Positions 3,247 through 58,398 of a stretch of 64,000 nucleotides of DNA are shown here, in pieces. The position numbers were made by a program, and so were the translations under genes. The DNA comes from an uncultured bacterium (GTDB taxonomy: Bacteria; Patescibacteriota; Minisyncoccia; UBA6257; 2-01-FULL-56-20): contig CAWJQC010000004.1 in the NCBI GenBank assembly GCA_963844965.1, positions 64,001 to 128,000 on the forward strand. The letters are read 5' to 3'. Below the pieces are notes generated by a model. It was given only the letters and a program-made list of their open reading frames with translations, made no database searches and had not been told where the DNA came from. Numbering within the stretch: position 1 is the stretch's first letter; the number at the start of each line of letters is the position of its first letter.

Positions 3247-3344
3247 ATGGAAAATGTAAATATCAAAATGTAAAATGACAACCCAAAATGCAAAAATTTT
3301 TAATTCTGAATTGTAATTTTGATTTTTGCATTTTAAATTTTACG

Positions 3345-3919: not shown

Positions 3920-4000
3920 GATTATAAATAAATTTTCAATTTTTAATTTTCAATTTTAAAATGTTTGGAAATTGTAAAATTGAGAATTATAAAATTGTTT

Positions 4001-7806: not shown

Positions 7807-7882
7807 AATGATAAATTTTCAATTTCCAATTTTCCAATTTCCAAACGTTTGGAAATTCTGAACTTGGAATTATTTTCTCCGT

Positions 7883-23829: not shown

Positions 23830-23902
23830 GTCCCTGTAGCTCAACGGATAGAGCGTGTGGCTTCGAACCACAAGGTTGCAGGTTCAAATCCTGCCAGGGA
23901 CG
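23830..23902 (+). tRNA. tRNA-Arg (anticodon TCG)
   Basis: Hand-folded cloverleaf: acceptor GTCCCTG/CAGGGAC, D-arm GCTC-AACGGATA-GAGC, anticodon arm TGTGG-CTTCGAA-CCACA, T-arm GCAGG-TTCAAAT-CCTGC, discriminator G, no encoded CCA. It is flanked by the inverted repeat CCCACCTTTG / CAAAGGTGGG. Confidence 0.85.
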
Positions 23903-23924
23903 CAAAGGTGGGAGGGTGAAGATA

Positions 23925-24491: not shown

Positions 24492-25886
24492 CTATTTCTG
24501 CAAGCTCAGAATTTTATTCCTGAACGTCAACTTACTCTTGAAGCAAGATAGCAATTCGCGTTTCTCGACCGTGCTGCCCTTTTTGAGAAGATATTTTGCG
24601 TACGTTTTAAGGTCAATTTCTTTAGTGGCCGCTTTCGATCCTTCTCCCAAGACATCGTTCGCGAATTTGCGATATCGTTCCATCTCGTCTTCGAATTTCT
24701 TCTGCATCCCAATCTCACTGATATCCATCTCGTCAATGATAGCGAGAAGTTGAGCGATCAATTCCTCTTCGCGAATGTATCCGCACTTGCAATCCTTATC
24801 TTTCGAGCGTGAGCATCCATAGTACACGTACCGCGCCGTCGTTCCATCCTTGTGCGCCTTATATTTCTCGCACGCACTGATGCCCGATCCGCATAGGCCG
24901 CACGAGATCAGTTTCGTAAACGAAAATTCCTTTATCTCCGACCTGATGACAAAATCTCGGTGCAGCTGCTCCTGTACTTTATCGAACAGCTCCCGCGAAA
25001 TGATTGCTTCGTGCTTGCCGCTGTACCAGTTACCGCTCTTCAGTGGATACTCAAAGATGCCGCAGTAAAATGGATTTTTGAGGATGATATAAATATTGGA
25101 TAACGAAAGCACTTTCCCATTCTTTGTTCTGAATTTGATTTCCGACTTCAGCCAATGATAAAGCTTCCGGCCCGACCATTGTTCGTCGGCGACTTTCTGG
25201 AGCATTTGCTTGATGACGGGCGCTCGCAGGGGATCAATGATAACTTCACAAGGACGGTCGGTGCTCTTCTCGTTAAGATACCCTGTCGGTGCGATAGACG
25301 GACGCAAACCTTGTTCGCACCGCATCCGTAATCCGCGCTTCACGTTTTCCGATTTGTTATCATTCTCAAGTTTCGCTTGGCTGCACAAAATCATCAACAT
25401 GAATTTCTCGCTCGGCGAGTTCGTGAATTTCTGGCTGAAGGTTCTGATCTCGATAAGTAATTTTTGATCCATCAAGTCCACCAAGCCGCCAAGGTCGCCC
25501 GCGTTGCGGCTCAAGCGATCCGGCGCCCATGTAAGGATACCGTTGAATTCGCCGGAACGAATATCAATAAGCAACTCGTTAAAAATTTTTCGCTGGCCGA
25601 CAGCTTTTGCGGAATGGCTTTCCTTTCTAACTTCGGCGATCTCAAGGTTATCGCGCTCGGCGATTTTCAGCATCTCCTTTATCTGACTATCAATGGAAAG
25701 CACTTGCTGTTCCTCGCTCTCCGTACTTTTCCTCGCATAGAGGCAGTATTTTATTTTTATCGCTTCGGCCTTTGTCGCAGAAACGCCCGACTGATCCCAG
25801 CCCTTTGGTATATTTGTTATTTTCTCCATACCTAAGGGATGCCGCAACGGCGGAAGGAGTCCAGAGCATCCTTGTCGGTAACTCAA
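24492..25886 (-). mobile_element. Large serine recombinase (resolvase catalytic domain, recombinase domain, zinc ribbon)
   Basis: YCLYARKSTESEEQQVLSIDSQ catalytic-Ser motif, large-recombinase middle domain, C-terminal Cys cluster CGLCGSG...YGCSRSKDKDCKCGY. About 590 bp from tRNA-Arg. Confidence 0.8.
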
Positions 25887-31231: not shown

Positions 31232-33913
31232 ATGAGTGGGATAAAAATAAATCTTTCTCTCAGCGAAATCCCAGGCATCGGCCCGCGTTTTCTGGAACGG
31301 CTGGGAAAACTCGGCATAAAAACCGTCCGTGATCTCATTTATCATTTTCCGGCCCGCTACGAGGATTTCTCCCAGATATACAAAATTTCCGACGTTGAGC
31401 CGGGGGAACAGGTAACAATACGTGGCGTTGTTGAAGACACCAAACTGCGGCGGACTTGGAGAAAACACATGACAATCGCCGAAGCCCTGATCCGCGACGA
31501 TTCCGGAACGATACGCGCCATCTGGTTCAACCAACCATATGTTTTGAACACTCTGCGGGTCGGGCGCACGGCGAATTTCGCAGGCAAAATATCCATATCG
31601 GACGAGGACGAAATTTATTTGAGCCACCCGGCTTATGAAATCGTCGGCAGTCGGGAGTCGGGAACGGAGAAGCAAGAAACAAAACATACAGCGCGGCTCG
31701 TCCCCATTTATCCCGAAACGCGCGGCCTCACATCCAAGGGGTTGAGATATCTGATCCAGCCAATTCTGAAAAACAGCGAACAGCTGGAGGAATGGCTGCC
31801 GCCGGAAGTTCTGCGCGAAAATAATTTTCCCGAAATAAACCTTGCGCTCAGATCCATACACTTCCCCGAAAAAACCGAGGATGCTCTTGTCGCGAAAAAA
31901 CGCTTCACTTTTGAAAACCTGTTCCTGCTGCAACTCGCCAATCTTGAACAAAAATTGAAACTCGCGCGCGAAAAAGCGCCAGTGATCAAAACCGACATAG
32001 AACACCTGAAAAAAATGATCTCGGAACTGCCATACGAACTCACGTTTTCGCAAAAGAAATCATTGTGGGAAATCATCCAGGACCTCGCCAAAAAACAGCC
32101 GATGAACCGCCTGCTCCAGGGCGACGTGGGCTCCGGCAAGACGGTTGTCGCGGCGCTCGCCGCGGTAATTACCGCGGAAAACGGGCTGCAGACCGCGTTT
32201 ATGGCGCCAACCGAGGTTCTCGCGAGACAGCATTTTGAAACATTGAAAAAATTATTCGCCGGAATTCCCTCGATCCATCAACCCGTAGTTGGGCTTCTCA
32301 CGTCAAGCGAAGCAAAAATCCTCTACGCGACAGACCTTGAATCAAAAATCAAAAAACCGGAGTTGCAGGAAAAAATAAAAAACGGCGAGGTAAAAATAGC
32401 CATCGGCACGCACGCTTTGATACAAAAAGACGTGGCGTTCGGCAATCTTGCCTTTATCATCATTGACGAACAGCATAGATTCGGCGTCTCACAACGAGCT
32501 GCGCTCGTTCGCGGACAGACGCAGAATGATAATACGCGGACAGACGCTGAACAACTACTATACGAAAAAACGACGTTTGAGATAAGAAAAAGTCTGTTTG
32601 AGGTGAGAAAACAACTGGGCCTTGGTCATAAAGAAGTGGTGTATCAGAAAGCATTGGAGGAGGAGTTCAAGAAATCCGGTGTAATATTTGAGAAAGAAAA
32701 GAAAATTCCTGTCGTTTATAACAAGAAAAAGATTGGCGTTTATCAACCGGATTTTGTCATAGATAATGAAGTAATTTTGGAACTTAAGGCTCTTCCCTTT
32801 ATCGGCGGCATCGAAAAAAAACAGCTGTGGAATTATTTGAGGGGTTCGGATTACAAACTCGCGCTTATGGCAAACTTTGGACCGGAAAGATTATCCATAG
32901 AGCGGGTAGTATACGATATTGCGCGGAGTCGGCGGCTGTCAGCGTCCGGTCAGCAACTGTCCGCGCCTATCCCCCACCTCCTCTCAATGTCCGCCACGCC
33001 AATCCCACGCACGCTCATGCTCACCGTCTTCGGCGATTTGGATATATCGCTCATCACCGAACTTCCCGCCGGCAGAAAAAATATCGTAACAAAAATAATC
33101 CCCCCACGGGGCAGGAGCGAAGCCTATGAATTCATCCGCGGCGAAGTGAGGGCCAGCCGGCAGGTTTTTGTCATCTGCCCCCGCATTGACAAACCGCAGA
33201 CAGGCGCAGACCACACGCAGACAAACGCAGACAAGACACAGACAGACGCAGACAATTTTCAGCGGCTGTCTGCGTCAAGTCAGCGACTGTCCGCGTTAAG
33301 TCCACGTAAGTCCGCGTTAGTGTGGGAAGTAAGATCCGTGAAAGAAGAATTTGAAAAATTATCCAAGAAAATTTTTCCGGATTTGCGCGTCGCCATGCTC
33401 CACGGCCAGCTCAAGCCAAAAGAAAAAGCGGGTATCATGAAGGACTTCCGCAACTACAAAATAGATATTCTCGTTTCAACTTCCGTCGTGGAAGTTGGCG
33501 TGGACGTGCCGAACGCAACAATAATGATGATTGAAGGCGCCGATCGCTTCGGGCTGGCTCAGATCTACCAATTCCGCGGACGCGTGGGGCGCGGCGAACA
33601 CCAATCCTATTGCTTCCTGTTCACGGATTCGTCCGCCAAAACTACGCGCGAGCGGCTGCAGGCCGTCCTTGAAGCCAAGAACGGCTTTGAGCTCGCCGAG
33701 AAGGACCTGAAGATCCGCGGTCCCGGCGAATTCCTCGGCACGGCGCAGACCGGCTTTCCCGACACGGCGATGAGCGGCCTCATGAACCCGGAGCTCGTGA
33801 AAGCAAGCCGCGAAGCGGCGGCAAAAATCGTCCAAAAAGATCCGCTTTTCAAAAATTATCCGCTCCTGAAAACCAAATTAAACGAGTTCCGGAAGGAAAT
33901 CCACTTGGAGTAG
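31232..33913 (+). CDS. recG: ATP-dependent DNA helicase RecG carrying an inserted GxxExxY/PD-(D/E)XK nuclease-like domain (about 32500-32990) and a second short repeat-encoded insert (33180-33310)
   Basis: Wedge/OB N-terminus; helicase motifs GDVGSGKT, DEQHRFG, QxxGRxGR (YQFRGRVGRGEHQSY). Internal segment GHKEVVYQKALEEEF...YQPDFVIDNEVILELKA matches GxxExxY plus D-x(n)-ExK. Confidence 0.85.
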   Translation: MSGIKINLSLSEIPGIGPRFLERLGKLGIKTVRDLIYHFPARYEDFSQIYKISDVEPGEQVTIRGVVEDTKLRRTWRKHMTIAEALIRDDSGTIRAIWFNQPYVLNTLRVGRTANFAGKISISDEDEIYLSHPAYEIVGSRESGTEKQETKHTARLVPIYPETRGLTSKGLRYLIQPILKNSEQLEEWLPPEVLRENNFPEINLALRSIHFPEKTEDALVAKKRFTFENLFLLQLANLEQKLKLAREKAPVIKTDIEHLKKMISELPYELTFSQKKSLWEIIQDLAKKQPMNRLLQGDVGSGKTVVAALAAVITAENGLQTAFMAPTEVLARQHFETLKKLFAGIPSIHQPVVGLLTSSEAKILYATDLESKIKKPELQEKIKNGEVKIAIGTHALIQKDVAFGNLAFIIIDEQHRFGVSQRAALVRGQTQNDNTRTDAEQLLYEKTTFEIRKSLFEVRKQLGLGHKEVVYQKALEEEFKKSGVIFEKEKKIPVVYNKKKIGVYQPDFVIDNEVILELKALPFIGGIEKKQLWNYLRGSDYKLALMANFGPERLSIERVVYDIARSRRLSASGQQLSAPIPHLLSMSATPIPRTLMLTVFGDLDISLITELPAGRKNIVTKIIPPRGRSEAYEFIRGEVRASRQVFVICPRIDKPQTGADHTQTNADKTQTDADNFQRLSASSQRLSALSPRKSALVWEVRSVKEEFEKLSKKIFPDLRVAMLHGQLKPKEKAGIMKDFRNYKIDILVSTSVVEVGVDVPNATIMMIEGADRFGLAQIYQFRGRVGRGEHQSYCFLFTDSSAKTTRERLQAVLEAKNGFELAEKDLKIRGPGEFLGTAQTGFPDTAMSGLMNPELVKASREAAAKIVQKDPLFKNYPLLKTKLNEFRKEIHLE

Positions 33914-34179: not shown

Positions 34180-36625
34180 CTACTGCTCCATATGACCGAC
34201 AAGGGTGCATGTATAAAAGTTACCAGTGCATTGGGATGAATTAGTAACATCCCAACAAGTTGAATAAGTCTCCAGCGCGCCACTACAAGGAGTGGTATTA
34301 GCGCATGAACTGTTGTAGTAACGAATATAAGTCATATACTGCGGGCAGAAGTAAATCGGCGTCCCGCCTGTAACTTTAAGAGTGCCGGGAATGATGACGT
34401 TGCCGTTTGCTAGAACCTGTATAGCTGCTCCGGTTGTAGTAGCTGTACCAGTATTCGGCATACTGCCGCCAATACCGACGTTGCCGGCATAGTTGATGAC
34501 TAATTTATTTGATTCTGCCGCACTAGGATAATTTCCCACCATAAGCATGGCGCCCTGATTAACATCGCCCACATCGAGCAGCACCGCATCCGCATTGGTC
34601 GTAGCCGCGGTGCCGTAGAACGTGCCGGTATTGGTATCCCTGTTCTGCTCGAACTGGGTGCCGTAATCACCGGTGTTATACAAGAACGAATAGGTGGGAT
34701 TACTAAAATCGCTGTACATCTCAAGGCCGGGGCCGGTACCGGCAGTATTTGAATATGCATAAAATTGATAGTTGGCGGGCGCCGCCGCTCCCACCCCGAT
34801 TCCGGAGGTGAATAAACCTCCTCCAGTTACCGTCAGTTTCTGGGTCGGCGCCGTATTCCCGATGCCGACGTTGCCGGAGGAATTCCAAATACCGGTGCCA
34901 GGCATCGTAACGTTGCCAGTAAAGGTCGGGCTCGCTAAAAGCGCCGCTCCGGTAACCTGCGCTACCCCGTAGTCACCAGATGCCGCCACCACGGCTCCGG
35001 TTCCGCCAAATACCGAGGTGACGCCGCCGCTCGGCCAAGCCGTGATGCAATTCGCCCCGGAGATGCAATATTGAGTGGCGTTTGCGGTAACCGTTGACGT
35101 ACAGAGCGTACCCTCCGCCTGAGTTTGTGAAATACCCACCGTAGCCGCCGGAGTTGGTGGCTAATCCATAAACTCCTACGCCGTTACCTGCCGCTGACTG
35201 TCCGGCAACCCCTACCCAGTAAGAAGCGCCGACCTGTCCGCCGAGAATCCCATTCGTTGTGGCGTTGCTATTATTTCCCGTTACCGAGCCGACCCATGAT
35301 GAATTGACGGCGCTCGTGAAACTGCCTACGCCAGCAACAACCAACGGATATGCCGGCGTCGTCGTCCCGATGCCGACGTTGCCGTTCGTGATGGAGAAAT
35401 ATGGACCACCCCCCATCCCAGTGCCAAGCGCCAAATTGAGGCCATAAGATTGTGACGTCAAATCAGCGTATGTAAATGCTCCGTTGCTGGTGGTGAACTT
35501 TATCCAATCTACGTTTGACCCGTTTGTATTGTCTAGCCGTAAGGTAGACGTACTTCCACTCTGAATATCAAGTTTTGCGACCGGCGCCGTGTTCCCGATG
35601 CCGACGTTGCCGTTGTTATTTATAAACAAGGCGGGTGACGCGCCGGATGAGTCAGAACCCTGAGTCAAAAAGGCCATTGGAGAACCGTTACTGCCGATCC
35701 GGGCCCAGTTCGCAACTGCTGCCGGTCCAAGCTGTAGCAAGGCATCGGTACCGTTAGATGTCAAGTCAAACTTGGCGAATTTTGACCCGTTCACGACATG
35801 CAACGTCGTTGCCGGCGACGCCGTCCCGATGCCGACGTTGCCGCCATATGCAAGCGTCATTATTTGGGAGTACCAACTGCTGGGGTTCTGATACCCAATC
35901 GTCAAGACCGAATTATCTGACGCTGGTGCAAAAACATACCCATTATTACTGCCAGCCATATCGCGGAGCTTGAAGGCTCCAAAGACATCAAGTGTATTTT
36001 GTGGTGACGGCGTCCCGATGCCGACCGAGCCCGAGAAATACCCGCCGCCGTAGACGGAGAGGGCCTGCGGCAAGTTGCTGGCGGAGGATGTGGTAACGCC
36101 CAGAGCGGAAGAAACAAACACACTGTGGGGGAACCCGTAGGGAACGCCGGAATCGGCCTCTAGAGAATTGAACACCGCGGGCGTGACATAGCCGGCGTTG
36201 ACGGTCCCGTTAAAATTGCCGTGGATCGTGCCGTTCACGTCAAGCTGGTAGCCAGGCGACGCCGTCCCGATGCCGACAGAACCGTCATTGCGCACGACAA
36301 GTATGGGCGACGAATTCGGATAAAGGATCTTCAATGTGTAATTCGCGGCATCAGCGGACGAAGAAGCAACGATGAGGAGTTTGGTTTCCGGCAGAGGCGT
36401 GGGCGTACCAACGCCCAGATTCCCAGCCGCATTAGTGCTTACCGCTCCCGAACCGAAACCGGGGGTGGGAGGAGGAGAGGCAAACGCGTAGTAGGTAGTA
36501 GGTAGTAGGTAGTAGGTAGTAGCGAGAATGACGAAAAACAAAACGTGCGGCGCAAAACTCGGACGCACACCGTAAAACTTGCGGCGGAGCTTTTGCTGTT
36601 TTTGGAACAAATCTGCGTCCATCAT
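34180..36625 (-). CDS. Giant Sec-secreted fibre-like surface protein 1 (about 815 aa; frameshift near 35100-35160 joins ORF-track pieces 34973..36625 and 34180..35139)
   Basis: Signal peptide MMDADLFQKQQKLRRKFYG...VLFFVILATTYYLLPTTYYAFA; dozens of GNVGIGT(A/T)xP repeats; Cys-rich C-terminal domain; N-terminus and a ~150-aa internal block identical to the 40555..43680 paralog. Confidence 0.7.
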
Positions 36626-36859
36626 AATAATTTACTACCTACTACCTACTACCTACCGCTTTTAATTGTTTCGGGGCGACAATCTCATAGCTTTATTATA
36701 TAAGAACAGGGAAAGATATGTAGAAAGGGGTGTGCATAGGCGCGAAAACTGCCCGAGCGGCGGCCGCAAATTTCCCGGCCATCCGGGATATAAAAAAGGC
36801 TCTCGCGAGGAATTGCGAATTGCGAATCCTCACGAGAGCCAAACATACCGGAGGGGAAT

Positions 36860-37567: not shown

Positions 37568-38045
37568 AACGACCTCCTCAAAAAGATTTAATTTAATTGC
37601 GCAAAGCAATTTGGCTACTCCCAAGAATAACCAAATCGCTTTGCGCAAGCAATATATTCATTTTTCAAGATACTTGCCTATCTATGCTAATTATAGCACA
37701 AATAAACAACCTGTCAACCCCCACCTTTTTCCGAAAAGGTGGGGGTCAAGTGGCCGCGGCGGCTGACCCGCTGAAGCGACGATACCCTACAACTCATAAA
37801 TCTCATCTCGCTTGCCTATTTTGAGTATATAAATTGCGCCATTTCTAACGTCAAATACCAACCTATAATCGCCCACGCGAAATCTGAACTCCCCGCCGCG
37901 GTTGTCAGCCAAACGCTTGGCAAACCTCAACGGATTATCCTCTGACGCATAAATGCGCATCTTCTTTGCTTTGCGATGCGCACTTGAACTTCTCTCGGCA
38001 GGGATTCCAACTGCTTAGCCGCCCGCTTGGCATAGAAAATCTTCG

Positions 38046-38222
38046 TTACAATCCCAACTTCTTAAACAGCTTATCCTGCGATATAGTTTTTTTTGCCTTG
38101 ATTTCTTTTCTCGCTTCGCGGACATCCAAAATATGCGCGAGGTAGCCAAGCAGGGCGCCGAAGCGAGCATCCGTTTTCCTCAAACGCTCGTATTCTTGTT
38201 TTGGTATAGTAACCGTGGTCAT
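38046..38222 (-). CDS. Antitoxin-like small protein (58 aa, MTTVTIPKQEYERLRKTDARFGALLGYLAHILDVREARKEIKAKK...), copy 1; its partner toxin is decayed
   Basis: Identical to the antitoxin at 40066..40242. The downstream RelE-like ORF in this copy has lost its ATG (CGT) and carries a 5-nt insertion. Confidence 0.5.
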   Translation of the reverse strand: MTTVTIPKQEYERLRKTDARFGALLGYLAHILDVREARKEIKAKKTISQDKLFKKLGL

Positions 38223-38345
38223 ATAAGTGCATTATAGTAAACCGGCGGCGGATATCAACCCCCACACCAAACGAGGACTTTCCGGGTCCCGCGCCGAAGG
38301 CGCATGTCCTCGTTAGGATTCTCGATAGGAATTGCCGGTGCGACA

Positions 38346-39299: not shown

Positions 39300-39545
39300 T
39301 CAAACTGTAAGCAGCTGCCGCGTCAACTTCTGTTTGCCGGCCTCGGCATCAGCCAGCGCCCGGTTGGTTTCCAAAATTAGCCGAAGCGCTTCTTTAAGAT
39401 TTTCTTTTACTTCCTTCACGCTTTTCCCTTGAGTATTTACCCCGGGCACTTCCTCTATCCAGCCGACATACCATTTACCGCTTTTTTTAAACACGGCTGT
39501 AAATTTGTATTTCATGACTGCCATACATTTAAGATAATCCCAAAG
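39300..39545 (-). CDS. HicB-like antitoxin, second copy (start MAVMKYKFTAVFKKSGKWYVGWIEEVPGVNTQGKSVKEVKENLKEALRLILE)
   Basis: UPF0150/HicB signature; trimmed from ORF 39300..39626. Confidence 0.55.
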   Translation of the reverse strand, partial: LWDYLKCMAVMKYKFTAVFKKSGKWYVGWIEEVPGVNTQGKSVKEVKENLKEALRLILETNRALADAEAGKQKLTRQLLTV

Positions 39546-39811
39546 CATGTAGCTGTCAACTCCTCTCAACTCCCGAGAAAACCCAGATGGCGAGCTTCTC
39601 CCTGCCTCGATAGGGTAGAAAAACAACTCAAACAGCCCAACGAAATTCGTTGGGCTGGATTTTTTTAACCAATGGCGTCACCCGCCGTTGAATTCCTTAA
39701 TATCTTTTGGCGAACACCGTTTAAACTACCTGTCAACCCCCACCTTTTTTCCGAAAAGGCGGGGGTCAAGCGGCCGCGGCGGCTGACCCGCTGAGCTGAA
39801 GCGACGATACC

Positions 39812-40066
39812 CTACAACTCATAAATCTCATCTCGCTTGCCTATTTTGAGTATATAAATTGCGCCATTTCTAACGTCAAATACCAACCTATAATCGCCCA
39901 CGCGAAATCTGAACTCCCCGCCGCGGTTATCAGCCAAACGCTTGGCAAACCTCAACGGATTATCCTCTGACGCATAAAAGCGCATCTTCTTCGCGATGCG
40001 CATTTGAACTTCTCTCGGCAGGGATTCCAACCGCTTAGCCGCCCGCTTGGCATAGAAAATCTTCAT
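39812..40066 (-). CDS. RelE/ParE-family toxin
   Basis: 84 aa; FYAKRAAKRLESLPREVQMRIAKKM...EFRFRVGDYRLVFDVRNGAIYILKIGKRDEIY, typical RelE/ParE. Confidence 0.7.
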   Translation of the reverse strand: MKIFYAKRAAKRLESLPREVQMRIAKKMRFYASEDNPLRFAKRLADNRGGEFRFRVGDYRLVFDVRNGAIYILKIGKRDEIYEL

Positions 40067-40242
40067 TACAATCCCAACTTCTTAAACAGCTTATCCTGCG
40101 ATATAGTTTTTTTTGCCTTGATTTCTTTTCTCGCTTCGCGGACATCCAAAATATGCGCGAGGTAGCCAAGCAGGGCGCCGAAGCGAGCATCCGTTTTCCT
40201 CAAACGCTCGTATTCTTGTTTTGGTATAGTAACCGTGGTCAT
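40066..40242 (-). CDS. Antitoxin partner of the RelE/ParE toxin (58 aa; stop overlaps the toxin ATG as TAATG)
   Basis: Not in the ORF track (under 60 aa). MTTVTIPKQEYERLRKTDARF...; translationally coupled to the toxin. Confidence 0.55.
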   Translation of the reverse strand: MTTVTIPKQEYERLRKTDARFGALLGYLAHILDVREARKEIKAKKTISQDKLFKKLGL

Positions 40243-40554
40243 ATTAAGTGCATTATAGCAAACCGGCGGCGGATGTCAACCCCCACACCAAACGAGGACG
40301 CGCGCCTTCGGCGCAGGACCCGGAAAGTCCTCGTTTGGTGTGGGGGTAAATTATGCCGAAAAAGCCGGAAGGAAAGATGCGATCTATGTTTCTCCCGCAA
40401 GAATACCCCCGCCGCAGGCGGGGGATGAATTGCGGTTCGAGAAACATAAACCCCGCCGATGGCGGGGTGAACTACCACCTAACATGCTGCATGTGCTAAG
40501 TATTTCGTGCGCAGCACGGCAGTTGAGATACCACCGCTGTGAGGCGGTGGTAGT

Positions 40555-43500
40555 TCATTTCAGAAGAGCGTCAACTTTTTCTTGGAGCGCGGCGTTCTGC
40601 GCCTGAAGAGCGCTGATCTCTTGTTGCTGCTCCTTGATGGATTCTATCATCGGCGCGATAAGCCCAGTATAATCCAGACCAAGGGTTCCGCTCGCGTCAG
40701 TTTCCACCAACTGCGGGAAAACCGTCTGTACATTCTGCGCGGTTAAACCGAGCTGCTCTCCACTGCCCATCAGTTTTGTATCTTTCCATTCAAAGGAAAC
40801 CGGCGTCAGTAACTCAAGCTCCGCAAGCGAACCCGACAGTGGAACTATATTCTTCTTCAAACGCTCGTCGGAGCTATTTATCCACTGCCCAGCATTGTTT
40901 GTATACTCGCCGTGGGCTCCCTGAAAGTCATACGTACTGCCGGAACCATAGACGCCGATTGCAGCAGTTGAAAACACCCCATACCCTGCGGGATTACCGA
41001 AGTATCCAGCGGAACCGTTCGCGCCCGCGGTATCCGAATATCCTTCCACCCCAACCCCAGTACCAGCGTTGTAGCCATAGACGGCGGGAAGACCATTACC
41101 AGTACCGTAGCCATAGACCCCATACCCAGTCGCACCAGCAGTGCCATAGACACCATACATAGAGCCGGTGCCATAAATCCCTGCCCCAGCTTGCCCGGCG
41201 CCACCGACGCTTAATGTTGACGCCGGTGCCGTCGTCCCGATGCCGACGTTGCCGTTCGTGATGGAGAAATATGGACCACCCCCCATCCCAGTGCCAAGCG
41301 CCAAATTGAGGCCATAAGATTGTGACGTCAAATCAGCGTATGTAAATGCTCCGTTGCTGGTGGTGAACTTTATCCAATCTACGTTTGACCCGTTTGTTTT
41401 GTCTAGCCGTAAGGTAGACGTACTTCCACTCTGAATATCAAGTTTTGCGACCGGCGCCGTGTTCCCGATGCCGACGTTGCCGTTCGTGATGGAGAAATAT
41501 GGACCACCCCCCATCCCAGTGCCAAGCGCCAAATTGAGGCCATAAGATTGTGACGTCAAATCAGCGTATGTAAATGCTCCGTTGCTGGTGGTGAACTTTA
41601 TCCAATCTACGTTTGACCCGTTTGTATTGTCTAGCCGTAAGGTAGACGTACTTCCACTCTGAATATCAAGTTTTGCGACCGGCGCCGTGTTCCCGATGCC
41701 GACGTTGCCGTTGTTATTTATAAACAAGGCGGGTGACGCGCCGGATGAGTCAGAACCCTGAGTCAAAAAGGCCATTGGAGAACCGTTACTGCCGATCCGG
41801 GCCCAGTTCGCAACTGCTGCCGGTCCAAGCTGTAGCAAGGCATCGGTACCGTTAGATGTCAAGTCAAACTTGGCGAATTTTGACCCGTTCACGACATGCA
41901 ACGTCGTTGCCGGCGACGCCGTCCCGATGCCGACGTTGCCGGAACCTAAAATTGTCACGAGATCCGTTTTCGAAGAAGCGCCCGTTTTTTCACTAAACTG
42001 GAAAGCGGTGGTGGGATTGTTATAAACATTATAAAAATCAACTTCTGCATTTCCTCCCGTATAATTCCAACCGACGGCCAGACCACCAAGGCCATCACTC
42101 ACCGGTAAAGATTGCGTGTTATATGAAGTTTTCAGGAACCCACCCTCAACATCGAGCTTGTAACCTGGTGCCGCCGTCCCGATGCCGACCGAGCCCGTGA
42201 AATATCCGCCGCCGTAGACGGAAAGCGCCTGCGGACCTACGGCACTGCCCGAAGTGGCAACCGCCAACGAAGAGGAAACGACGACGCTGGCCGGGAAAAG
42301 ATAATTGCCCGTGCTGACAACGTTTGAACCGAAATACCCGGCCGCCACGTTGCTGGCGTTCACGGTGCCACCCGAAGAAGCGCAGTCGGAACCGGTGCCA
42401 GAAACAACGCCCGCAGCGCTTACGTGCAAACACTGGATAGAACCGCTGATTCCAGAAACAGTAAGGGTGTTGGCACTTGCGCCACTGCTGAAAGTTTGAA
42501 GCGCGGTCCAGGTGTTCGCATGTCCAAGATTCAATGCGGCGGACACGGCGCCCGCGGTTGGAGATATCGTTAGAGTTCCGACGCCGCTGTCGCTGACCGA
42601 GGTTACGCTGCCGCCTGCCGCAGACCAAGAAAGCGTGCCAGCGCCGTTGTTCGTGAGCACAGTACTTGCACCGCCTTGCGCGGCCGGCCAGGAATAAGTG
42701 ATACTGTTGATTTTCGCGATGTTGCCGTTATTGTCAACCTGGAATTGACTGCTCGCGCCGACGCTAAAAAGCGACGCTGGCCCCGTCGTCCCGATGCCGA
42801 CGTTGCCGCCCGCAGTTATCCTCATTCTCTCAGCAGCTCCAGCTGAAGTGTCAACCCTAAATATAAGACCATTCGTCGCAGCGCTCGCCTTGACATCTAT
42901 AAACCCTCCCCCAGAAGAATCACTACTGAAAAGTCTCATGCCGTTAACACCGACGCTCGTATCACCTCCAAAGAATAGGTTGCCGTTGACGTTGCCTGCT
43001 GCCATAGGCAAAAGCATATTTGACGTAAGCTGAAGCTGTTGAGTTGGGTTCGCCGTCCCGATGCCGACGTTGCCGCTGAAATACCCGCCGCCGTAGACGG
43101 AGAGGGCCTGCGGCAGATTGCTCGCGGTTGTCGTTGTGATTCCAAGACCGGAAGTGATAAACACGCTGTGGGGAAACCCGTAGGGAACGCCGGAATCGAG
43201 TTGGAGAGAGTTAAACACCCCGGGCGAGATGTTGCCGGCGCTTACGAGACCGCTCACGCTGCCATAAATGGACATGCCGCTGGCGAGATTCACACTGCCG
43301 GCATTAGTAAGATTTGAAGTGCCGATACCGACGGTGCCATCGTTGCGCACGACGAGAAGCGGAACAGCAGAGCCGGGCTGGACAACCTGCAGAGCGAAAT
43401 TTGAGCTGTCGGTTGACGAAGCCACAATCAGAAGCCTCACGTTGGCGGAGGGTGTTGACGTTCCAATGCCCAGATTGCCCGCGGCGTTAACGCTTATCGC

Positions 43501-43680
43501 TCCCGAACCGTAACCGGGAGTGGGAGGAGGAGAAGCAAACGCATAGTAGGTAGTAGGTAGTAGGTAGTAGGTAGTAGCGAGAATGACGAAAAACAAAACG
43601 CGCGGCGCAAAACTCGGACACGCACCGTAAAACTTGCGGCGGAGCTTTTGCTGTTTTTGGAACAAACCTGCGTCCATCAT
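40555..43680 (-). CDS. Giant Sec-secreted fibre-like surface protein 2 (1041 aa) with peptidase-S74-type C-terminal intramolecular chaperone domain
   Basis: Same signal peptide as protein 1; GNVGIGT repeats; in-frame tandem 237-bp (79-aa) duplication at about 41237-41710; C-terminus NSSDERLKKNIVPLSG...GLDYTGLIAPMIESIKEQQQEISALQAQNAALQEKV, the S74 autoproteolysis motif SDxRLK plus a coiled coil. Confidence 0.75.
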   Translation of the reverse strand: MMDAGLFQKQQKLRRKFYGACPSFAPRVLFFVILATTYYLLPTTYYAFASPPPTPGYGSGAISVNAAGNLGIGTSTPSANVRLLIVASSTDSSNFALQVVQPGSAVPLLVVRNDGTVGIGTSNLTNAGSVNLASGMSIYGSVSGLVSAGNISPGVFNSLQLDSGVPYGFPHSVFITSGLGITTTTASNLPQALSVYGGGYFSGNVGIGTANPTQQLQLTSNMLLPMAAGNVNGNLFFGGDTSVGVNGMRLFSSDSSGGGFIDVKASAATNGLIFRVDTSAGAAERMRITAGGNVGIGTTGPASLFSVGASSQFQVDNNGNIAKINSITYSWPAAQGGASTVLTNNGAGTLSWSAAGGSVTSVSDSGVGTLTISPTAGAVSAALNLGHANTWTALQTFSSGASANTLTVSGISGSIQCLHVSAAGVVSGTGSDCASSGGTVNASNVAAGYFGSNVVSTGNYLFPASVVVSSSLAVATSGSAVGPQALSVYGGGYFTGSVGIGTAAPGYKLDVEGGFLKTSYNTQSLPVSDGLGGLAVGWNYTGGNAEVDFYNVYNNPTTAFQFSEKTGASSKTDLVTILGSGNVGIGTASPATTLHVVNGSKFAKFDLTSNGTDALLQLGPAAVANWARIGSNGSPMAFLTQGSDSSGASPALFINNNGNVGIGNTAPVAKLDIQSGSTSTLRLDNTNGSNVDWIKFTTSNGAFTYADLTSQSYGLNLALGTGMGGGPYFSITNGNVGIGNTAPVAKLDIQSGSTSTLRLDKTNGSNVDWIKFTTSNGAFTYADLTSQSYGLNLALGTGMGGGPYFSITNGNVGIGTTAPASTLSVGGAGQAGAGIYGTGSMYGVYGTAGATGYGVYGYGTGNGLPAVYGYNAGTGVGVEGYSDTAGANGSAGYFGNPAGYGVFSTAAIGVYGSGSTYDFQGAHGEYTNNAGQWINSSDERLKKNIVPLSGSLAELELLTPVSFEWKDTKLMGSGEQLGLTAQNVQTVFPQLVETDASGTLGLDYTGLIAPMIESIKEQQQEISALQAQNAALQEKVDALLK

Positions 43681-43735
43681 AATAATTTACTATCTACTAC
43701 TTACTACCTACCACCTACTACCTACTACCTACTAC

Positions 43736-44200
43736 TTACTGCTTCGCAGGCGGTCCCTGGATGGTGCCGCTTGCCACTTGCGAAGGAAGCTGCTGCGAAG
43801 GAAGTTGCTGTCCCGATGACTGAAGCGAAGAAGGGTTGGCGAATGCCTGCACAAGCTGACTGTCGTTGCGCAGGCTCGTCCAGAAAATCACCTGCTTGGC
43901 GTTCAAATGGACCTCGTCAACCGGGCCCCAGAAAGCGTTCTTGAGGGCGGAGAGTCCGAGCTGTGCCTGATTCTGCTGATTGACGCTCCTCTGCAGGAAC
44001 CAGACGTTTGTCAGACGCAGGGACGGGAACCAGCTCAGTTTGCCGAAATAGATATCACCGGTCGTAAGATAGACCGCCGAATACTCGGAAGGGCCAGCCG
44101 GATTTTTGGGAGACATGAGTTTCAAGCCGAGCCACAGGCCGAAAATCAGGACGACGAGCACAATGAGAACCAGGACAGCGATTAATTTTTTGGGCAACAT
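43736..44200 (-). CDS. Membrane-anchored hypothetical protein with Gln-rich C-terminus
   Basis: N-terminal TM LIAVLVLIVLVVLIFGLWLGL; SSGQQLPSQQLPSQ tail. Confidence 0.45.
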   Translation of the reverse strand: MLPKKLIAVLVLIVLVVLIFGLWLGLKLMSPKNPAGPSEYSAVYLTTGDIYFGKLSWFPSLRLTNVWFLQRSVNQQNQAQLGLSALKNAFWGPVDEVHLNAKQVIFWTSLRNDSQLVQAFANPSSLQSSGQQLPSQQLPSQVASGTIQGPPAKQ

Positions 44201-44319: not shown

Positions 44320-44853
44320 TTATTGTTTTGGGGCGACAACGAGGTAACCGATGGGACCTTTTTCCGGACCGCCGCAGGAAGCGCAGTAAAAGGTAAACTT
44401 GCCTTCAAGATAGGCCTGGAACTGGAACGTTTTGCTTGTCCCCTTTGGGGCAGAGAGATTCAGACCGTAATCGGGCTGGGTAAGGTCATAATTTCCGTCA
44501 ACCGCGTTCACGGTCAGGTTTATGACATCAAACTTGCGGACGATGATGGTGTCCGGTGTAAAGGCGTTGGCTTCAATCTTTATGGAAAAGTCGCGGTTGC
44601 TCGCGCTTGAGACCTGGCTCGCGGGGCTCACGGTCTGCGGAATGGCAACACCCTGCGGGACATTCTGGGAGTTCTGGTTGGGCACGACGATGTTCTGAGG
44701 CGCCACTTCGCGGGTCGCGGTAGCGTTGGGCTTGGCGTTGCCGCCGGCCTGAATGGCCGAGGTTCCGGGCTGGCGTTCTACGAGAAGGAAGATGCCCACA
44801 AAGACCACGACCACGACAACCGCCACAATGGCAATTATTTTGTTTTTGCTCAT
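44320..44853 (-). CDS. Membrane-anchored cupredoxin-like domain protein (start MSKNKIIAIVAVVVVVV)
   Basis: TM anchor, Pro/Gln-rich linker, C-terminal ~90-aa beta domain (FTPDTIIVRKFDVINLTVNAVDG...KFTFYCASCGG) that reads as cupredoxin-like; tentative. Confidence 0.35.
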   Translation of the reverse strand: MSKNKIIAIVAVVVVVVFVGIFLLVERQPGTSAIQAGGNAKPNATATREVAPQNIVVPNQNSQNVPQGVAIPQTVSPASQVSSASNRDFSIKIEANAFTPDTIIVRKFDVINLTVNAVDGNYDLTQPDYGLNLSAPKGTSKTFQFQAYLEGKFTFYCASCGGPEKGPIGYLVVAPKQ

Positions 44854-44933
44854 AGCTTTATTATATAAGAACAGGGAAAGACATGTAAAAGGGGGGTGTG
44901 CATAAGTGCGGAAACCGCGGCGGGGGCTACTGC

Positions 44934-45797
44934 TTAGGTACAAGAAACGCTTGAAGTCGCAATCATGCCGCTGCCCGTAATATAAAGCCGATAGCAGGAA
45001 GCACCATTCTTCAGGATTATGCCGGACGCGCTATTGCTTATATATATATCTCCCCCGGCGACCTGAAGCGCCTGCGTCGGCTGCGAACCCATGTTCACGC
45101 CGGCGTAGCCGGTAAAATAAACATTATTTGAGCCGGGTAAGCCGAAATTGAGCACGCCGTTGACGTTACTCCAGTATTGCGTGGCAGTTCCAAGCGGCAG
45201 GCCGGTGGTTGACGATGGAAACACACCGGTATCAAAAGTCGCCGCATTCACGCGCGCAATCGCCGTCTGCAGTGCCTCCGAAAATTGCTGTGTCGCGTTC
45301 TGCGTATTGTTGGCCACAACGAATGAAACGCTCACGGAGTCGTGCCCCGGCGCGTTGGAACGCTTTATAAAAGTGAGGGAAGTAACGTTCACCCTCGGAG
45401 TTGTAAGCGGCTGCGGCGTGCCGGTAGCGGTCTGTTGCAAATATACCGTGCCAGGCGTACCGGAAGACAGATAAATGTAGGTCGGGTCCAACGAACTGGC
45501 TGCCATCCGCAACTTTAGGGTGCTCGTAGCGATATCCTGGTTTAACTCAACAAGACTTGAGCGTTCTATGTAATATTGGATCTGCTGCAACAGGAACTGG
45601 CTTTCTTGGTTCACCTCGGCGGCAGCCGACTGGCGGGATTGGATACGTATGACGGCGACCATCATCGTTATAAACGCAACCATGACTATTGCGAAGATCG
45701 CCGAAAAAGCAAGAAGTTCAATGATGGTGAAACCCTTCTTTGAACGGTAGGTGTAGTAAGTGGTAGGTGGTAAGTGGTAGGTGGTAAATTTCTTCAT
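44934..45797 (-). CDS. Type IV pilin-like / pseudopilin protein with extended heptamer-encoded leader
   Basis: KKGFTIIELLAFSAIFAIVMVAF is the class III signal (G-F-T-x-x-E) plus hydrophobic helix. It is preceded by TTYHLPPTTYYTYRS encoded by a (GGTAGTA)-type heptamer tract. Confidence 0.7.
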   Translation of the reverse strand: MKKFTTYHLPPTTYYTYRSKKGFTIIELLAFSAIFAIVMVAFITMMVAVIRIQSRQSAAAEVNQESQFLLQQIQYYIERSSLVELNQDIATSTLKLRMAASSLDPTYIYLSSGTPGTVYLQQTATGTPQPLTTPRVNVTSLTFIKRSNAPGHDSVSVSFVVANNTQNATQQFSEALQTAIARVNAATFDTGVFPSSTTGLPLGTATQYWSNVNGVLNFGLPGSNNVYFTGYAGVNMGSQPTQALQVAGGDIYISNSASGIILKNGASCYRLYITGSGMIATSSVSCT

Positions 45798-45806
45798 ATT
45801 AACTAA

Positions 45807-46187
45807 TTATAACACTTGGGCGCCTAATGCGCTTATTGCCTTATTTATCATCCACATGATTTCATCTAAATCTTCGGCCAATTTCCTGTATGTTTCGGGG
45901 TTCAAATATTTTAATTCATAGACAATCTCTAACTGAGTTTCCAGCTCTGCGCCGGAACTATATGCGTTTCTCAAAAATTGTAATTTTTCTTTTTTGGAAC
46001 TTCTCCGAAAACCCTCGGCAATATTAGACGGCATAGAAATCGCCGCTCGCCGCATTTGACTTGTTAGACCATATAGTTCCGACGGTGGAAATTTTTCGGT
46101 AACTCCGTATATCAGAACCGCATACGATTTTGTGCGTTTCCAAATGTTCAAATCTCTGTAAGATTTAATGGCTGAATTTTCCGCCAT
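45807..46187 (-). CDS. Four-helix-bundle protein (TIGR02436-like)
   Basis: 126 aa; ...YGLTSQMRRAAISMPSNIAEGFRRSSKKEKLQFLRNAYSSGAELETQLEI..., characteristic of that family. Confidence 0.6.
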   Translation of the reverse strand: MAENSAIKSYRDLNIWKRTKSYAVLIYGVTEKFPPSELYGLTSQMRRAAISMPSNIAEGFRRSSKKEKLQFLRNAYSSGAELETQLEIVYELKYLNPETYRKLAEDLDEIMWMINKAISALGAQVL

Positions 46188-46331
46188 GTCTAAATTCTAC
46201 TATATCATACTACCTACCACCTACTACATACTACTTACCGTGTCCGACCACCTCTCGCGTTTTCGGCGTTACCCAAAAGCGTCGCTCGCCTACGCTCGCT
46301 CCCTCACAACCTCTCGGTTTTGAGTAATTTC

Positions 46332-58297: not shown

Positions 58298-58398
58298 TAA
58301 AAAATTAAAAATTTAAAAATCAAAAATAAAAATGACTGAGTTCGCGAAGCGAACATCTGCATTTTACATTTTGATGTTTACATTTTAAATTTCCTATC

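What the first reader, a model, noticed from the sequence alone, without database searches (positions are those of the whole stretch)
36485..36660. Heptanucleotide (CTACTAC)n tracts inside and just upstream of the signal-peptide codons, in inverted orientation (potential phase-variation switch)
Plus strand 36488-36522 is (GTAGTAG)5, encoding TTYYLLPTTYY of the signal peptide on the minus strand. Another (CTACTAC)-type tract at 36634-36656 lies 9 nt upstream of the start codon (ATG 36625) in the opposite orientation. The same pair recurs at giant gene 2 (43544-43577 in-gene; 43689-43740 upstream). Single tracts occur in the pilin leader (45743-45784, encoding FTTYHLPPTTYYTYRS in-frame) and upstream of the four-helix-bundle gene (46208-46240). 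A 7-nt unit is not a multiple of three, so each slippage event toggles the reading frame: a classic contingency-locus design. The inverted pair around the start codon could alternatively pair in the mRNA to occlude the RBS, or act as an inversion site.
Basis: seen in the sequence. Interest (0 to 1): 0.75.

Follow-up and report, generated by a model that had tools for sequence, protein, structure and literature searches.

The report
Inverted heptamer-repeat arms bracketing start codons
The (GTAGTAG)n/(CTACTAC)n tracts are real, but they are the two arms of a widespread heptamer-repeat element at gene boundaries that can fold the mRNA around start codons, and where relatives could be compared they behave as fixed, conserved sequence rather than as an on/off slippage switch.

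Summary
In detail: 22 matches to two units against 0.03 expected. The window has three inverted pairs, not two pairs plus two singles. The third pair brackets the four-helix-bundle (PF05635) gene, and its 3' arm lies in the pilin leader.

On the coding strand each pair reads 5'-(GTAGTAG)n...(CTACTAC)n-3'. The G arm has stops in all three frames, follows the upstream gene's stop and ends 7-20 nt before a start codon. The C arm is open in all frames and is translated inside a cleavable leader. Predicted mRNA stems are 24-34 bp.

The same heptamer occurs in at least 120 genomes from many phyla, mostly intergenic, always in G-then-C order.

Syntenic loci in six related Patescibacteria lineages keep both pilin-locus arms. 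The in-frame pilin arm is ~30 nt in five lineages (+9 nt here), with 80% synonymous codon identity against 40-52% elsewhere.

The giant-gene arm is 35 nt (5 units) in three lineages and decays as ordinary codons in the other two. ±1-unit slippage does occur in longer arrays elsewhere.

Verdict: a conserved cis element, most likely gating translation initiation. Phase variation of the two giant genes is possible but unsupported.

The parts
36633..36656 (-). Gene 1 5' arm: (GGTAGTA)n, 3.4 perfect units, in the 5' UTR. It ends 7 nt before the ATG and has TAG stops in all three frames.
36523..36632 (-). Gene 1 loop of about 110 nt. It holds the start codon (ATG 36625-36623) and the codons for the n- and h-regions of the signal peptide (MMDADLFQKQQKLRRKFYGVRPSFAPHVLFFVILA).
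   Evidence: The N-terminus is homologous to P0124.
36488..36522 (-). Gene 1 3' arm: (CTACTAC)5, perfect, translated in frame as TTYYLLPTTYY just before the AFA|S signal-peptidase site.
36695..36724 (-). Promoter-like site (TCTACA, 18 nt spacer, TATAAT) upstream of the 5' arm, so both arms would be on the gene 1 transcript. It is a copy of the promoter and first bases of the cupredoxin-like gene at 44849-44918.
   Evidence: (repeats D12 and D14)
43688..43740 (-). Gene 2 5' arm: 7.6 imperfect units. It starts at the TAA stop (43738-43736) of the upstream 154-aa ORF and ends 7 nt before the ATG at 43680.
43544..43577 (-). Gene 2 3' arm: 5 units (the last is CTACTAT), in frame in the signal peptide.
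46208..46240 (-). 5' arm of the third pair: about 5 imperfect G-type units between the stop of the GT2 gene and the start of the four-helix-bundle gene (ATG 46187). It is conserved at this position in six lineages.
45807..46187 (-). Four-helix-bundle gene (PF05635 23S_rRNA_IVP, TIGR02436) lying between the arms of the third pair.
45806..45814 (-). Extended -10 box (TGtTATAAT) overlapping the stop codon of the four-helix-bundle gene, 8 nt before the pilin ATG (45797). A TATAAT box lies 6-18 nt before the pilin ATG in all six lineages. This suggests a leaderless or near-leaderless pilin transcript that lacks the 5' arm.
   Evidence: read directly
45743..45787 (-). 3' arm of the third pair: degenerate C-type array translated in frame in the prepilin leader (MKKF-TTYHLPPTTYYTY-RSKKGFT).

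Best explanation
The tracts are the two arms of an inverted heptamer-repeat element, (GGTAGTA)n ... (TACTACC)n. It belongs to the known class of heptameric tandem arrays that sit at bacterial gene boundaries.

Shown:
- The G arm carries stop codons in all three frames. It starts at or near the upstream gene's stop, and in several relatives it supplies that stop. It ends 6-20 nt before the next start codon, in an organism where only 5 of 42 genes have a Shine-Dalgarno-like motif.
- The C arm has almost no G and is open in all frames. It has been taken into the cleavable N-terminal leader of exported proteins (pilin, giant fibre-like proteins), where extra residues are tolerated.
- Both pilin-locus arms are conserved in related genomes. 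The coding arm is held at the nucleotide level.

Inferred:
- On one transcript the arms pair into a 24-34 bp stem. One end of that stem lies within the ribosome footprint of a start codon: 7 nt upstream for genes 1 and 2, 20 nt upstream for the four-helix-bundle gene, 12 nt downstream for pilin.
- The stem therefore gates translation initiation.
- It could be opened by ribosomes finishing the upstream ORF at the edge of the G arm (translational coupling).
- For pilin it could be avoided altogether by transcripts from the pilin gene's own promoter, which lack the G arm (fold-back inhibition of read-through transcripts).
- Slippage in the perfect 5-unit coding arm would switch genes 1 and 2 off. 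I regard that as a side effect, not the selected function.
For: - Three inverted pairs, all 5'-G...C-3' on the coding strand.
- Arm-to-arm duplexes of -42 to -66 kcal/mol. Whole 5' regions fold far better than shuffles: z -4.95 and -8.2.
- The same split stem around the start codon is predicted in a distant homologue, L153 (33 pairs, z -4.17), although its arms have diverged.
- The gene 1 promoter-like site lies upstream of the 5' arm.
- Six syntenic lineages keep the G arm at the GT2 stop / four-helix-bundle start and the C arm in the pilin leader.
- In that leader, synonymous codon identity is 99/124 (80%), against 52% in the four-helix-bundle gene and 40% in the rest of pilin. G content is 0-5% against 25%.
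- Polarity in 118 tracts from other genomes: an ORF stop lies within 15 nt before a G-type array in 20 cases, against 3 for C-type. An ORF start lies within 15 nt after a C-type array in 12 cases, against 4 for G-type. All 31 pairs are in G...C order.
- Low Shine-Dalgarno use.
- Published parallel: TAACTGA heptamer arrays with stops in all frames sit immediately upstream of start codons. The reverse orientation is tolerated only at protein ends (PMC4679880).
Against: - No transcript, processing or translation data exist, so the stem is only predicted.
- There is no covariation signal. Cognate G/C arm pairs fold no better than non-cognate pairs (-45.9 versus -44.6 kcal/mol). The wobble-compatible changes in L153 are too few to count.
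- Either arm can persist without the other. L138 has a degenerate G arm but no C arm. L152 has a C arm but only a remnant of the G arm.
- In the pilin case an internal promoter would often separate the arms.
- About two thirds of family members in other genomes are single arrays with no clear partner.
- The polarity counts carry a built-in bias, because G arrays end any frame and C arrays extend any frame.
Confidence: 0.4

Rival explanations
1. Phase variation. Slipped-strand mispairing in the perfect (CTACTAC)5 tract of genes 1 and 2 toggles the reading frame and gives heritable on/off switching of two surface fibre proteins.
For: - Only 2, 5 or 8 units are in frame, and the off frames stop within 13-18 codons.
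- The tracts are 100% and 97% perfect although the paralogues' loops differ at 4 positions. In relatives the same tract has decayed. Perfection suggests ongoing homogenisation, which slippage would give.
- Single-unit polymorphism of this repeat family is seen between otherwise identical or 3%-divergent contigs and between copies within one genome.
- The targets are secreted fibre-like proteins with a Peptidase_S74 domain, next to a pilin gene.
Against: - Both paralogues carry 5 units, and homologues in two other lineages also carry 35 nt.
- Those tracts decay as ordinary codons, so mutability has not been maintained.
- The sister tract in the pilin leader is fixed in frame in six lineages. 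It is invariant in six SNP-bearing strains and six clonal contigs.
- The observed polymorphisms are in arrays of 6-14 units, not 4-5.
- The heptamer is a general, mostly non-coding element.
- No population data exist for this organism.
Confidence: 0.2
2. A repeat with no function for the host. Heptamer arrays arise and spread by polymerase slippage and template switching. They persist where they do no harm: intergenic spacers and cleaved leaders. The hairpin potential is a by-product of inverted duplication.
For: - Heptameric repeats are over-represented in many bacteria, possibly for replication-mechanical reasons (PMC4692102).
- This genome is rich in them: 25 of 82 Tandem Repeats Finder rows have period 7. 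It has a second heptamer hairpin family.
- C-type tracts are inserted in frame inside unrelated enzymes in other genomes (L071, L100, L080).
- Tracts decay in L152 and L153.
- Arms occur singly.
- There is no covariation.
Against: - Both arms are kept at the same positions in six lineages whose four-helix-bundle proteins are only 70-89% identical to the window's.
- Synonymous sites in the coding arm are conserved at twice the background rate, and G is excluded.
- Orientation and position relative to stops and starts are fixed.
Confidence: 0.25
3. The arms act separately, without pairing. The G array is a translation initiation or re-initiation region or a protein-binding site. Its AGGU cores resemble a Shine-Dalgarno sequence, as was proposed for TAACTGA arrays. 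The C array is a G-free, unstructured 5' coding stretch that favours initiation on leaderless mRNAs.
For: - Either arm persists alone in L138 and L152.
- The pilin C arm occupies about +13 to +57 (about +10 to +40 in relatives) of a probably leaderless mRNA and has 0-5% G.
- G arrays abut start codons in all lineages.
- Shine-Dalgarno use is low.
- Published proposal: PMC4679880.
Against: - In the giant genes the C arm lies at +104 to +138, outside the zone where structure affects initiation.
- This does not explain why the two arms are exact complements, or why pairs are always in G...C order.
Confidence: 0.12
4. DNA inversion switch. The inverted arms are recombination sites, and flipping the roughly 110-bp segment removes the start codon.
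For: - Inverted repeats of 24-35 bp flank 111-116 bp that contain the ATG.
- In the flipped orientation the segment gives only a 15-codon ORF (read).
- A large serine recombinase gene lies 10.6 kb away at 24492-25886.
Against: - Only the 'on' orientation is seen in gene 1, gene 2 and L153.
- Most family members have loops of 0-30 nt, where inversion would mean nothing.
- No recombinase was found among the 19 ORFs scanned from 28189 to 53361 (RecG), and none is called in the syntenic loci of relatives.
- The recombinase present sits beside a tRNA gene, as an integrase would.
Confidence: 0.03

Closest known systems
Intergenic TAACTGA heptamer direct-repeat arrays of Beggiatoaceae, Cyanobacteria and Bacteroidetes (MacGregor 2015, PMC4679880)
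   Same: - Tandem heptamers.
- The 'forward' orientation has stops in all three frames, overlaps or follows the upstream gene's stop, and lies a few nucleotides before the next start codon where a Shine-Dalgarno sequence is absent.
- The reverse orientation is open in all frames and occurs only at the edges of proteins.
- Patchy distribution across distant phyla.
- A role in translation was proposed but not tested.
   Different: - A different heptamer (GGTAGTA).
- Here the arrays come as inverted pairs that can form long stems, whereas only one indirect repeat was reported for TAACTGA.
- The reverse arm is conserved inside cleavable leaders.
- The host is a Patescibacteria lineage.
Cyanobacterial STRR heptamers and GGGNATC-type heptamer repeats of Xanthomonas and Nostoc (Rehm 2015, PMC4692102; STRR from my own knowledge of Mazel et al. 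1990)
   Same: - Heptameric tandem arrays, mostly intergenic.
- Length variation between close strains.
- Some occur in inverted arrangement.
   Different: - Those repeats are G-rich and form quadruplexes, or are used only as fingerprinting markers.
- No coding-arm incorporation or start-codon bracketing has been described for them.
Simple-sequence-repeat contingency loci, for example the 7-bp repeats at hmw1A/hmw2A of Haemophilus influenzae (PMC8262952, listed but not read; details from my own knowledge)
   Same: A tandem repeat whose unit is not a multiple of three, placed in the 5' coding region of surface-protein genes.
   Different: No copy-number polymorphism was shown at this locus. Related tracts are fixed or decaying. 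The copy number is low (5). The repeat is one half of an inverted pair that is also common outside genes.
23S rRNA intervening sequences that encode PF05635 or PF13366 proteins (family annotation; general knowledge)
   Same: - A PF05635 four-helix-bundle ORF lies between inverted arms that can form a long stem.
- In the same window a PF13366 domain lies between inverted 10-nt-repeat arms inside recG.
   Different: - The element is in an mRNA operon, not in rRNA.
- The four-helix-bundle gene is a conserved syntenic resident here, not a recent insertion.
- RNase III excision is untested.
Fold-back inhibition of IS10/IS50 transposase mRNA and structure-gated translational coupling (textbook knowledge)
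   Same: A sequence upstream of the gene's own promoter, or at the end of the upstream ORF, pairs with the initiation region. Only some transcripts or coupled ribosomes can then start translation.
   Different: Those stems are short and unique in sequence. Here they are 24-34 bp of tandem heptamers, and the complementary arm is translated.

Membership tests
SSR contingency (phase-variation) locus | Tandem repeat within the ORF or promoter, with a unit length that is not a multiple of 3 | tested here: met
   Five 7-nt units lie in the 5' coding region of genes 1 and 2.
SSR contingency (phase-variation) locus | A change of one unit switches the product off | tested here: met
   Only 2, 5 or 8 units give the full ORF. 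Other numbers stop 13-18 codons after the tract.
SSR contingency (phase-variation) locus | Unit-number polymorphism at the locus within a population or among close strains | not testable with these tools
   No reads or sibling assemblies of this organism were found. For the sister tract in the pilin leader the feature is not met: six SNP-bearing contigs and six clonal contigs are identical.
SSR contingency (phase-variation) locus | Relatives carry the tract with varying numbers, including out-of-frame alleles, and the repeat stays pure | tested here: not met
   The tract is 35 nt in the window, L153 and L152. It has decayed by substitution in the latter two and is absent in L138 and L146.
Heptamer gene-boundary arrays (TAACTGA/STRR class) | Tandem heptamer arrays, mostly intergenic, in several distant phyla | tested here: met
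   At least 120 genome loci in Bacteroidota, Cyanobacteria, Patescibacteria, Elusimicrobia, Chloroflexi and others.
Heptamer gene-boundary arrays (TAACTGA/STRR class) | One orientation has stops in all frames and lies between the upstream stop and the next start codon | tested here: met
   Window. Orthologues. Survey: 20 versus 3 of 118 tracts (with a bias caveat).
Heptamer gene-boundary arrays (TAACTGA/STRR class) | The reverse orientation is tolerated only at permissive protein sites | tested here: met
   Leaders of pilin and the giant proteins. A C-terminal loop of P0126. L071, L100 and L080.
Heptamer gene-boundary arrays (TAACTGA/STRR class) | Same repeat sequence as a described family | tested here: not met
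   No paper in the library contains either 14-mer. The described families use other heptamers.
23S rRNA IVS-type element | PF05635 or PF13366 ORF between stem-forming inverted repeats | tested here: met
   PF05635 at E 1.8e-36 between arms 46208-46240 and 45743-45787.
23S rRNA IVS-type element | Inserted in a 23S rRNA helix and excised by RNase III | tested here: not met
   The element lies between protein-coding genes, and no rRNA is present in the window. Excision cannot be tested here.
Invertible DNA switch | Inverted repeats flank a segment that carries a promoter or start codon | tested here: met
   inverted repeats I4 and I10.
Invertible DNA switch | Both orientations are observed, and a dedicated recombinase lies adjacent | tested here: not met
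   One orientation in 3 of 3 loci. Neighbouring ORFs show no recombinase. The nearest is a large serine recombinase 10.6 kb away, beside a tRNA gene.

The most novel reading that the evidence does not exclude
The heptamer stems and the four-helix-bundle ('23S rRNA IVS') protein could form one module: an IVS-like RNA-processing or translation-gating unit embedded in an mRNA operon. In this reading the PF05635 protein recognises the stem that brackets its own gene, or directs its cleavage. That would give the large, uncharacterised PF05635 and PF13366 families a function, and would explain why the same heptamer hairpins recur with fixed polarity at gene boundaries across many phyla.
Probability: 0.1. 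Interest if true: 0.8.

Novelty: new variant of a known kind. Interest (0 to 1): 0.5.

Why it matters
Heptameric repeat arrays at gene boundaries have been noted for decades (STRR, TAACTGA) without a demonstrated function.

This locus offers a well-defined test case:
- The two orientations of one heptamer bracket start codons.
- They are conserved in position across a Patescibacteria clade.
- The coding arm shows nucleotide-level constraint.

If the stem gates translation, it would be a simple post-transcriptional control device in organisms that mostly lack Shine-Dalgarno sequences.

It also warns against calling any non-triplet repeat in a surface gene a contingency locus. Here the comparative data contradict that reading for one tract and fail to support it for the other two.

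Tried and rejected
- **Exact-protein look-ups of window genes.** The 154-aa ORF, the four-helix-bundle protein and P0002 are not on record. No population data for the organism itself could be obtained.
- **Codon-degenerate pattern of the loop.** A scan of metagenomes found 0 hits.
- **Arm + 100-130 nt + arm pattern.** The metagenome scan gave 15 loci. None resembles this cassette and none has a long ORF starting in the loop. It did yield the copy-number polymorphisms.
- **Is the hairpin a mobile cargo element carrying the four-helix-bundle gene?** Rejected. Only 2 of 120 genome loci have such a gene next to an array. Wide-gap 'pairs' enclose ordinary genes. In relatives the gene is a fixed syntenic resident. 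A viral-contig search found nothing.
- **Partner-arm detection by duplex energy around every tract.** Too noisy: 50 versus 34 tracts pass on the expected versus the control side.
- **Co-evolution of cognate arms.** No signal.
- **Rfam.** No known RNA family overlaps the tracts.
- **Literature.** No paper contains the 14-mer. Searches combining heptamer, IVS protein and Candidate Phyla Radiation terms found nothing specific.
- **First protein search with the N-terminus.** It found a single hit, P0001. The exhaustive search was needed to find tract-bearing homologues.
Full report
**1. Observation**

Tandem Repeats Finder reports six period-7 arrays of one family:

| Coordinates (+ strand) | Copies | Matches |
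|---|---|---|
| 36488-36522 | 5.0 | 100% |
| 36633-36656 | 3.4 | 100% |
| 43544-43577 | 4.9 | 100% |
| 43688-43740 | 7.6 | 86% |
| 45746-45786 | 5.6 | 77% |
| 46208-46238 | 4.4 | 83% |

- A two-unit pattern with up to 2 mismatches hits 22 times, against 0.03 expected. All hits lie in these six tracts.
- A periodic-match scan shows that they form exactly three inverted pairs.
They flank the gene 45807-46187, which is a PF05635 / TIGR02436 four-helix-bundle protein.
- All the genes concerned are on the minus strand. On that strand each pair reads 5'-(GTAGTAG)n ... (CTACTAC)n-3'.
- The G orientation has TAG in all three frames. The C orientation is open in all three frames and always encodes LLPTTYY.

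**2. Anatomy in the window**

*Genes 1 and 2* (34973-36625 and 40555-43680; the latter has a Peptidase_S74 domain):
- They share a 262-nt 5' module that is 92% identical (repeat D5).
- The G arm ends 7 nt before ATGATG.
- A loop of 111-116 nt follows. It encodes the n- and h-regions of a signal peptide.
- Then comes the C arm (TTYYLLPTTYY), then AFA|SPPPTPG.

*Upstream of each gene:*
- For gene 2, the upstream 154-aa ORF stops (TAA) exactly where the G arm begins.
- For gene 1, a promoter-like site (TCTACA, 18-nt spacer, TATAAT) lies upstream of the G arm. It is a duplicate of the promoter and first bases of the cupredoxin-like gene (repeats D12 and D14). Both arms should therefore be on the gene 1 mRNA.

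*The third pair:*
- The G arm lies between the GT2 gene and the start of the four-helix-bundle gene.
- A TGnTATAAT box overlaps the stop of the four-helix-bundle gene, 8 nt before the pilin ATG.
- The C arm is codons 5-17 of the prepilin leader (MKKF-TTYHLPPTTYYTY-RSKKGFT; PF07963).

*Folding:*
- Arm-to-arm duplexes are -42 to -66 kcal/mol on either strand.
- The gene 1 and gene 2 5' regions fold at -70 and -101 kcal/mol, with z -4.95 and -8.2.

*Ribosome-binding signals:* only 5 of 42 long ORFs have a Shine-Dalgarno-like motif. Several have a TATAAT box 6-9 nt before the ATG.

**3. Frame logic**

Rebuilding genes 1 and 2 with 2 to 9 units shows that only 2, 5 and 8 units give the full protein. 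Other numbers stop 13-18 codons after the tract.

**4. The heptamer is a widespread element**

They come from Bacteroidota, Cyanobacteria, Patescibacteria, Elusimicrobia, Omnitrophota, Chloroflexi, Planctomycetota, Proteobacteria, Acidobacteriota and others, and include cultured isolates.

- Arrays range from 21 to 166 nt.
- Where both orientations lie within 1.5 kb, the order is always G then C (31 of 31). Gaps range from 0 to 1,310 nt.
- Short-gap pairs are plain hairpins.
- Polarity relative to genes:

| Feature within 15 nt | G-type arrays | C-type arrays |
|---|---|---|
| Long ORF ends just before the array | 20 of 118 | 3 of 118 |
| Long ORF starts just after the array | 4 of 118 | 12 of 118 |

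- The counts are biased, because G arrays end any frame and C arrays extend any frame. Even so, many N-termini just after C arrays look genuine to my reading (YebC-, AckA-, DnaG- and Lpd-like).
- C-type tracts also lie in frame inside unrelated enzymes (L071, L100, L080).
- No Rfam family covers the tracts.
- No paper in the library contains the 14-mer.

**5. The arrays do slip**

- L125 and L129 come from two metagenomes. They have 0 mismatches over 1 kb and differ by exactly one unit, 13 versus 14.
- L124 differs from L127 and L131 by 3% and by one unit in the G array.
- Paralogous copies within one genome differ in unit number (L029/L086 and L050/L109).
- These are consensus assemblies, so assembly error in long arrays cannot be excluded.

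**6. Orthologous loci**

The four-helix-bundle protein has 3,032 homologues at E ≤ 1e-10. The nearest named ones are from Candidatus Liptonbacteria, in the Patescibacteria.

Contigs for five of them show the same gene order: GT2, four-helix-bundle gene, pilin, cupredoxin-like gene, small ORF, giant gene. The four-helix-bundle gene is therefore a resident of this locus, not a recent cargo.

In all six lineages:
- A G-type array sits at the GT2 stop. In L139, L145 and L146 its own TAG is the stop codon.
- That array ends 10-20 nt before the four-helix-bundle ATG. Unit number varies from 5 to 7.
- A TATAAT box lies 6-18 nt before the pilin ATG.
- A C-type array lies in frame in the pilin leader. 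It is ~30 nt in five lineages. The window has 9 nt more, a multiple of three.

Further measurements:
- Six contigs of one lineage differ by up to 19 SNPs in 5.3 kb but have no indels. Six contigs of another lineage are identical.
- Among identical amino acids, codons are identical in 99 of 124 comparisons (80%) in the leader array. The figures are 661 of 1,270 (52%) in the four-helix-bundle gene and 890 of 2,199 (40%) in the rest of pilin.
- G content is 0-5% in the array against 25% elsewhere.

The pilin tract is therefore a constrained nucleotide element, not a switch.

**7. The giant-gene tract in relatives**

- L138 is the nearest relative that carries the giant gene. It has a degenerate G array running into the ATG but an ordinary signal peptide.
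- L146-149 have neither arm. Instead a 16-nt inverted repeat with a 113-nt loop ends 2 nt before the ATG.
- An exhaustive protein search found homologues that do carry the tract:
  - P0124 has FTTAYYLLFTIYHA.
  - P0146 has LLLTTYYLLPTN.
  - Weaker traces appear in P0165, P0131 and P0125.
- Their DNA shows 35 nt, 5 units, in both. The units have decayed by substitution.
- L153 has the full architecture: the upstream ORF's stop is the array's TAG, the G array has about 5.5 units, 6 nt separate it from the ATG, and the loop is about 110 nt. Its predicted G:C stem has 33 pairs (z -4.17).
- In L152 the G arm is only a remnant.
- The split stem is therefore older than this genome, and the 5-unit length is conserved. 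The tract evolves like ordinary codons in other lineages. The perfect repeats in both window paralogues are the exception.

**8. Weighing the explanations**

*Class.* With high confidence, this is a heptamer gene-boundary array of the kind described for TAACTGA (PMC4679880) and noted as over-represented in bacteria (PMC4692102). It differs in having a new heptamer and an inverted, split arrangement.

*Mechanism (inferred).*
- One end of every stem lies within a ribosome footprint of a start codon.
- The G arm begins where the upstream ORF ends.
- The pilin gene has its own promoter downstream of the G arm.
- Together these fit a stem that gates initiation. It could be relieved by upstream translation, or avoided by transcripts from the internal promoter.

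*Against the stem model.*
- There is no covariation.
- Either arm can persist alone.
- No expression data exist.

*Rivals that remain open.*
- Phase variation of genes 1 and 2 is mechanically possible. The purity of the tracts is a point in its favour. But it has no comparative support and is contradicted for the sister tract.
- A functionless repeat is hard to square with the synonymous-site conservation.
- Inversion has no support.

**9. Context noticed**

The same window has a PF13366 (GxxExxY) domain inserted in frame in recG, between inverted 10-nt-repeat arms. A cargo-less hairpin of the same repeat lies nearby. PF05635 and PF13366 are the two families known from 23S rRNA intervening sequences. 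That parallel prompts the speculative reading that these proteins act on the stems that bracket them.

Noticed in passing
window 32510-32965 and 33188-33321 (recG, 31232-33913 +): RecG carries an in-frame PF13366 (PDDEXK_3 / GxxExxY) domain at residues 447-558, between its DEAD and Helicase_C domains. Inverted arms made of ~10-nt repeats (GACAGACGCA type) flank the domain. A second hairpin of the same repeat, without cargo, is also translated in frame.
   Followed up: partly
window 47284-47325, 56725-56763, 56924-56958: Further 10-nt tandem repeats of the same type (ACGCGGACTT / CGCGGACAGA) lie inside other ORFs. One is in the GT2 gene 46332-48005, where it encodes QTNAD...SALSPRKSAL.
   Followed up: no
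window 2181-2311, 3245-3341, 3931-3998, 7814-7875, 58296-58392 (also 22857, 52518, 55416): A second family of heptamer hairpins, (AATTTYC)n...(RGAAATT)n, fills intergenic spacers and ends about 7-10 nt before start codons. 25 of 82 Tandem Repeats Finder rows in the window have period 7.
   Followed up: partly
window 34180-35139 and 34973-36625: Gene 1 is split. The 550-aa ORF runs out of frame near 35100, and a 319-aa ORF continues in another frame. No homopolymer lies at the junction. This could be a pseudogene, a frameshift or an assembly error.
   Followed up: partly
window 35353-35652 vs 41451-41750; 41223-41712: A 300-nt stretch is 99% identical between genes 1 and 2, whereas neighbouring parts are 78% identical. 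Gene 2 also has a 228-nt tandem duplication at 98% identity. This points to recent gene conversion or duplication in the fibre genes.
   Followed up: no
window 37718-38278 vs 39738-40299: Two direct copies of about 560 nt, 91-98% identical across segments and 2,020 nt apart, with a 60-nt inverted repeat. They lie between genes 1 and 2 near a UPF0150/HicB-like ORF at 39300-39626. Their nature is unknown.
   Followed up: no
window 36660-36690; L138 2880-2990: The motif ATGAGATTGTCG(C/G)CCCC lies between the copied promoter and the gene 1 G arm. It recurs inside a palindromic insertion of about 190 nt (ends CCCAGTAGT...ACTACTGGG) that sits at the start codon of the four-helix-bundle gene in L138. 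It may be a small mobile element.
   Followed up: no
window 24492-25886 (-) and 23830-23903: A large serine recombinase (Resolvase + Recombinase + Zn_ribbon_recom domains) lies next to tRNA-Arg. This may mark the end of an integrated element.
   Followed up: no
L146-L149, about 160 nt before the giant-gene ATG: In this related lineage the giant gene has no heptamer arms. Instead a 16-nt inverted repeat (CATGCCCCGTAGGAAA / TTTCCTACGGGGCATG) with a 113-nt loop ends 2 nt before the ATG. It is a different stem at the same place.
   Followed up: no
P0126 (giant protein of L138), C-terminal region: A variable loop before the conserved SYRLSAPRFD motif holds the heptamer-coded STTYHLPPTTYE. Homologues have other periodic inserts at that site (TTNYQLPATSY, LNPKSYILNPE). 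This looks like a second permissive site for heptamer arrays.
   Followed up: no
window 62655-62716 (+): Fluoride riboswitch (RF01734, 47.8 bits).
   Followed up: no
L050 6782-6987 and L109 4755-4967: In one MAG a palindromic element of about 150 nt (ends TATAGTGCTTAAGAAAAAGATTTTGGGG / CCCCAAAATATTTATCTTAAGAGCTATA) is inserted within G-type heptamer arrays at two loci. The arrays may be insertion targets for miniature elements.
   Followed up: no
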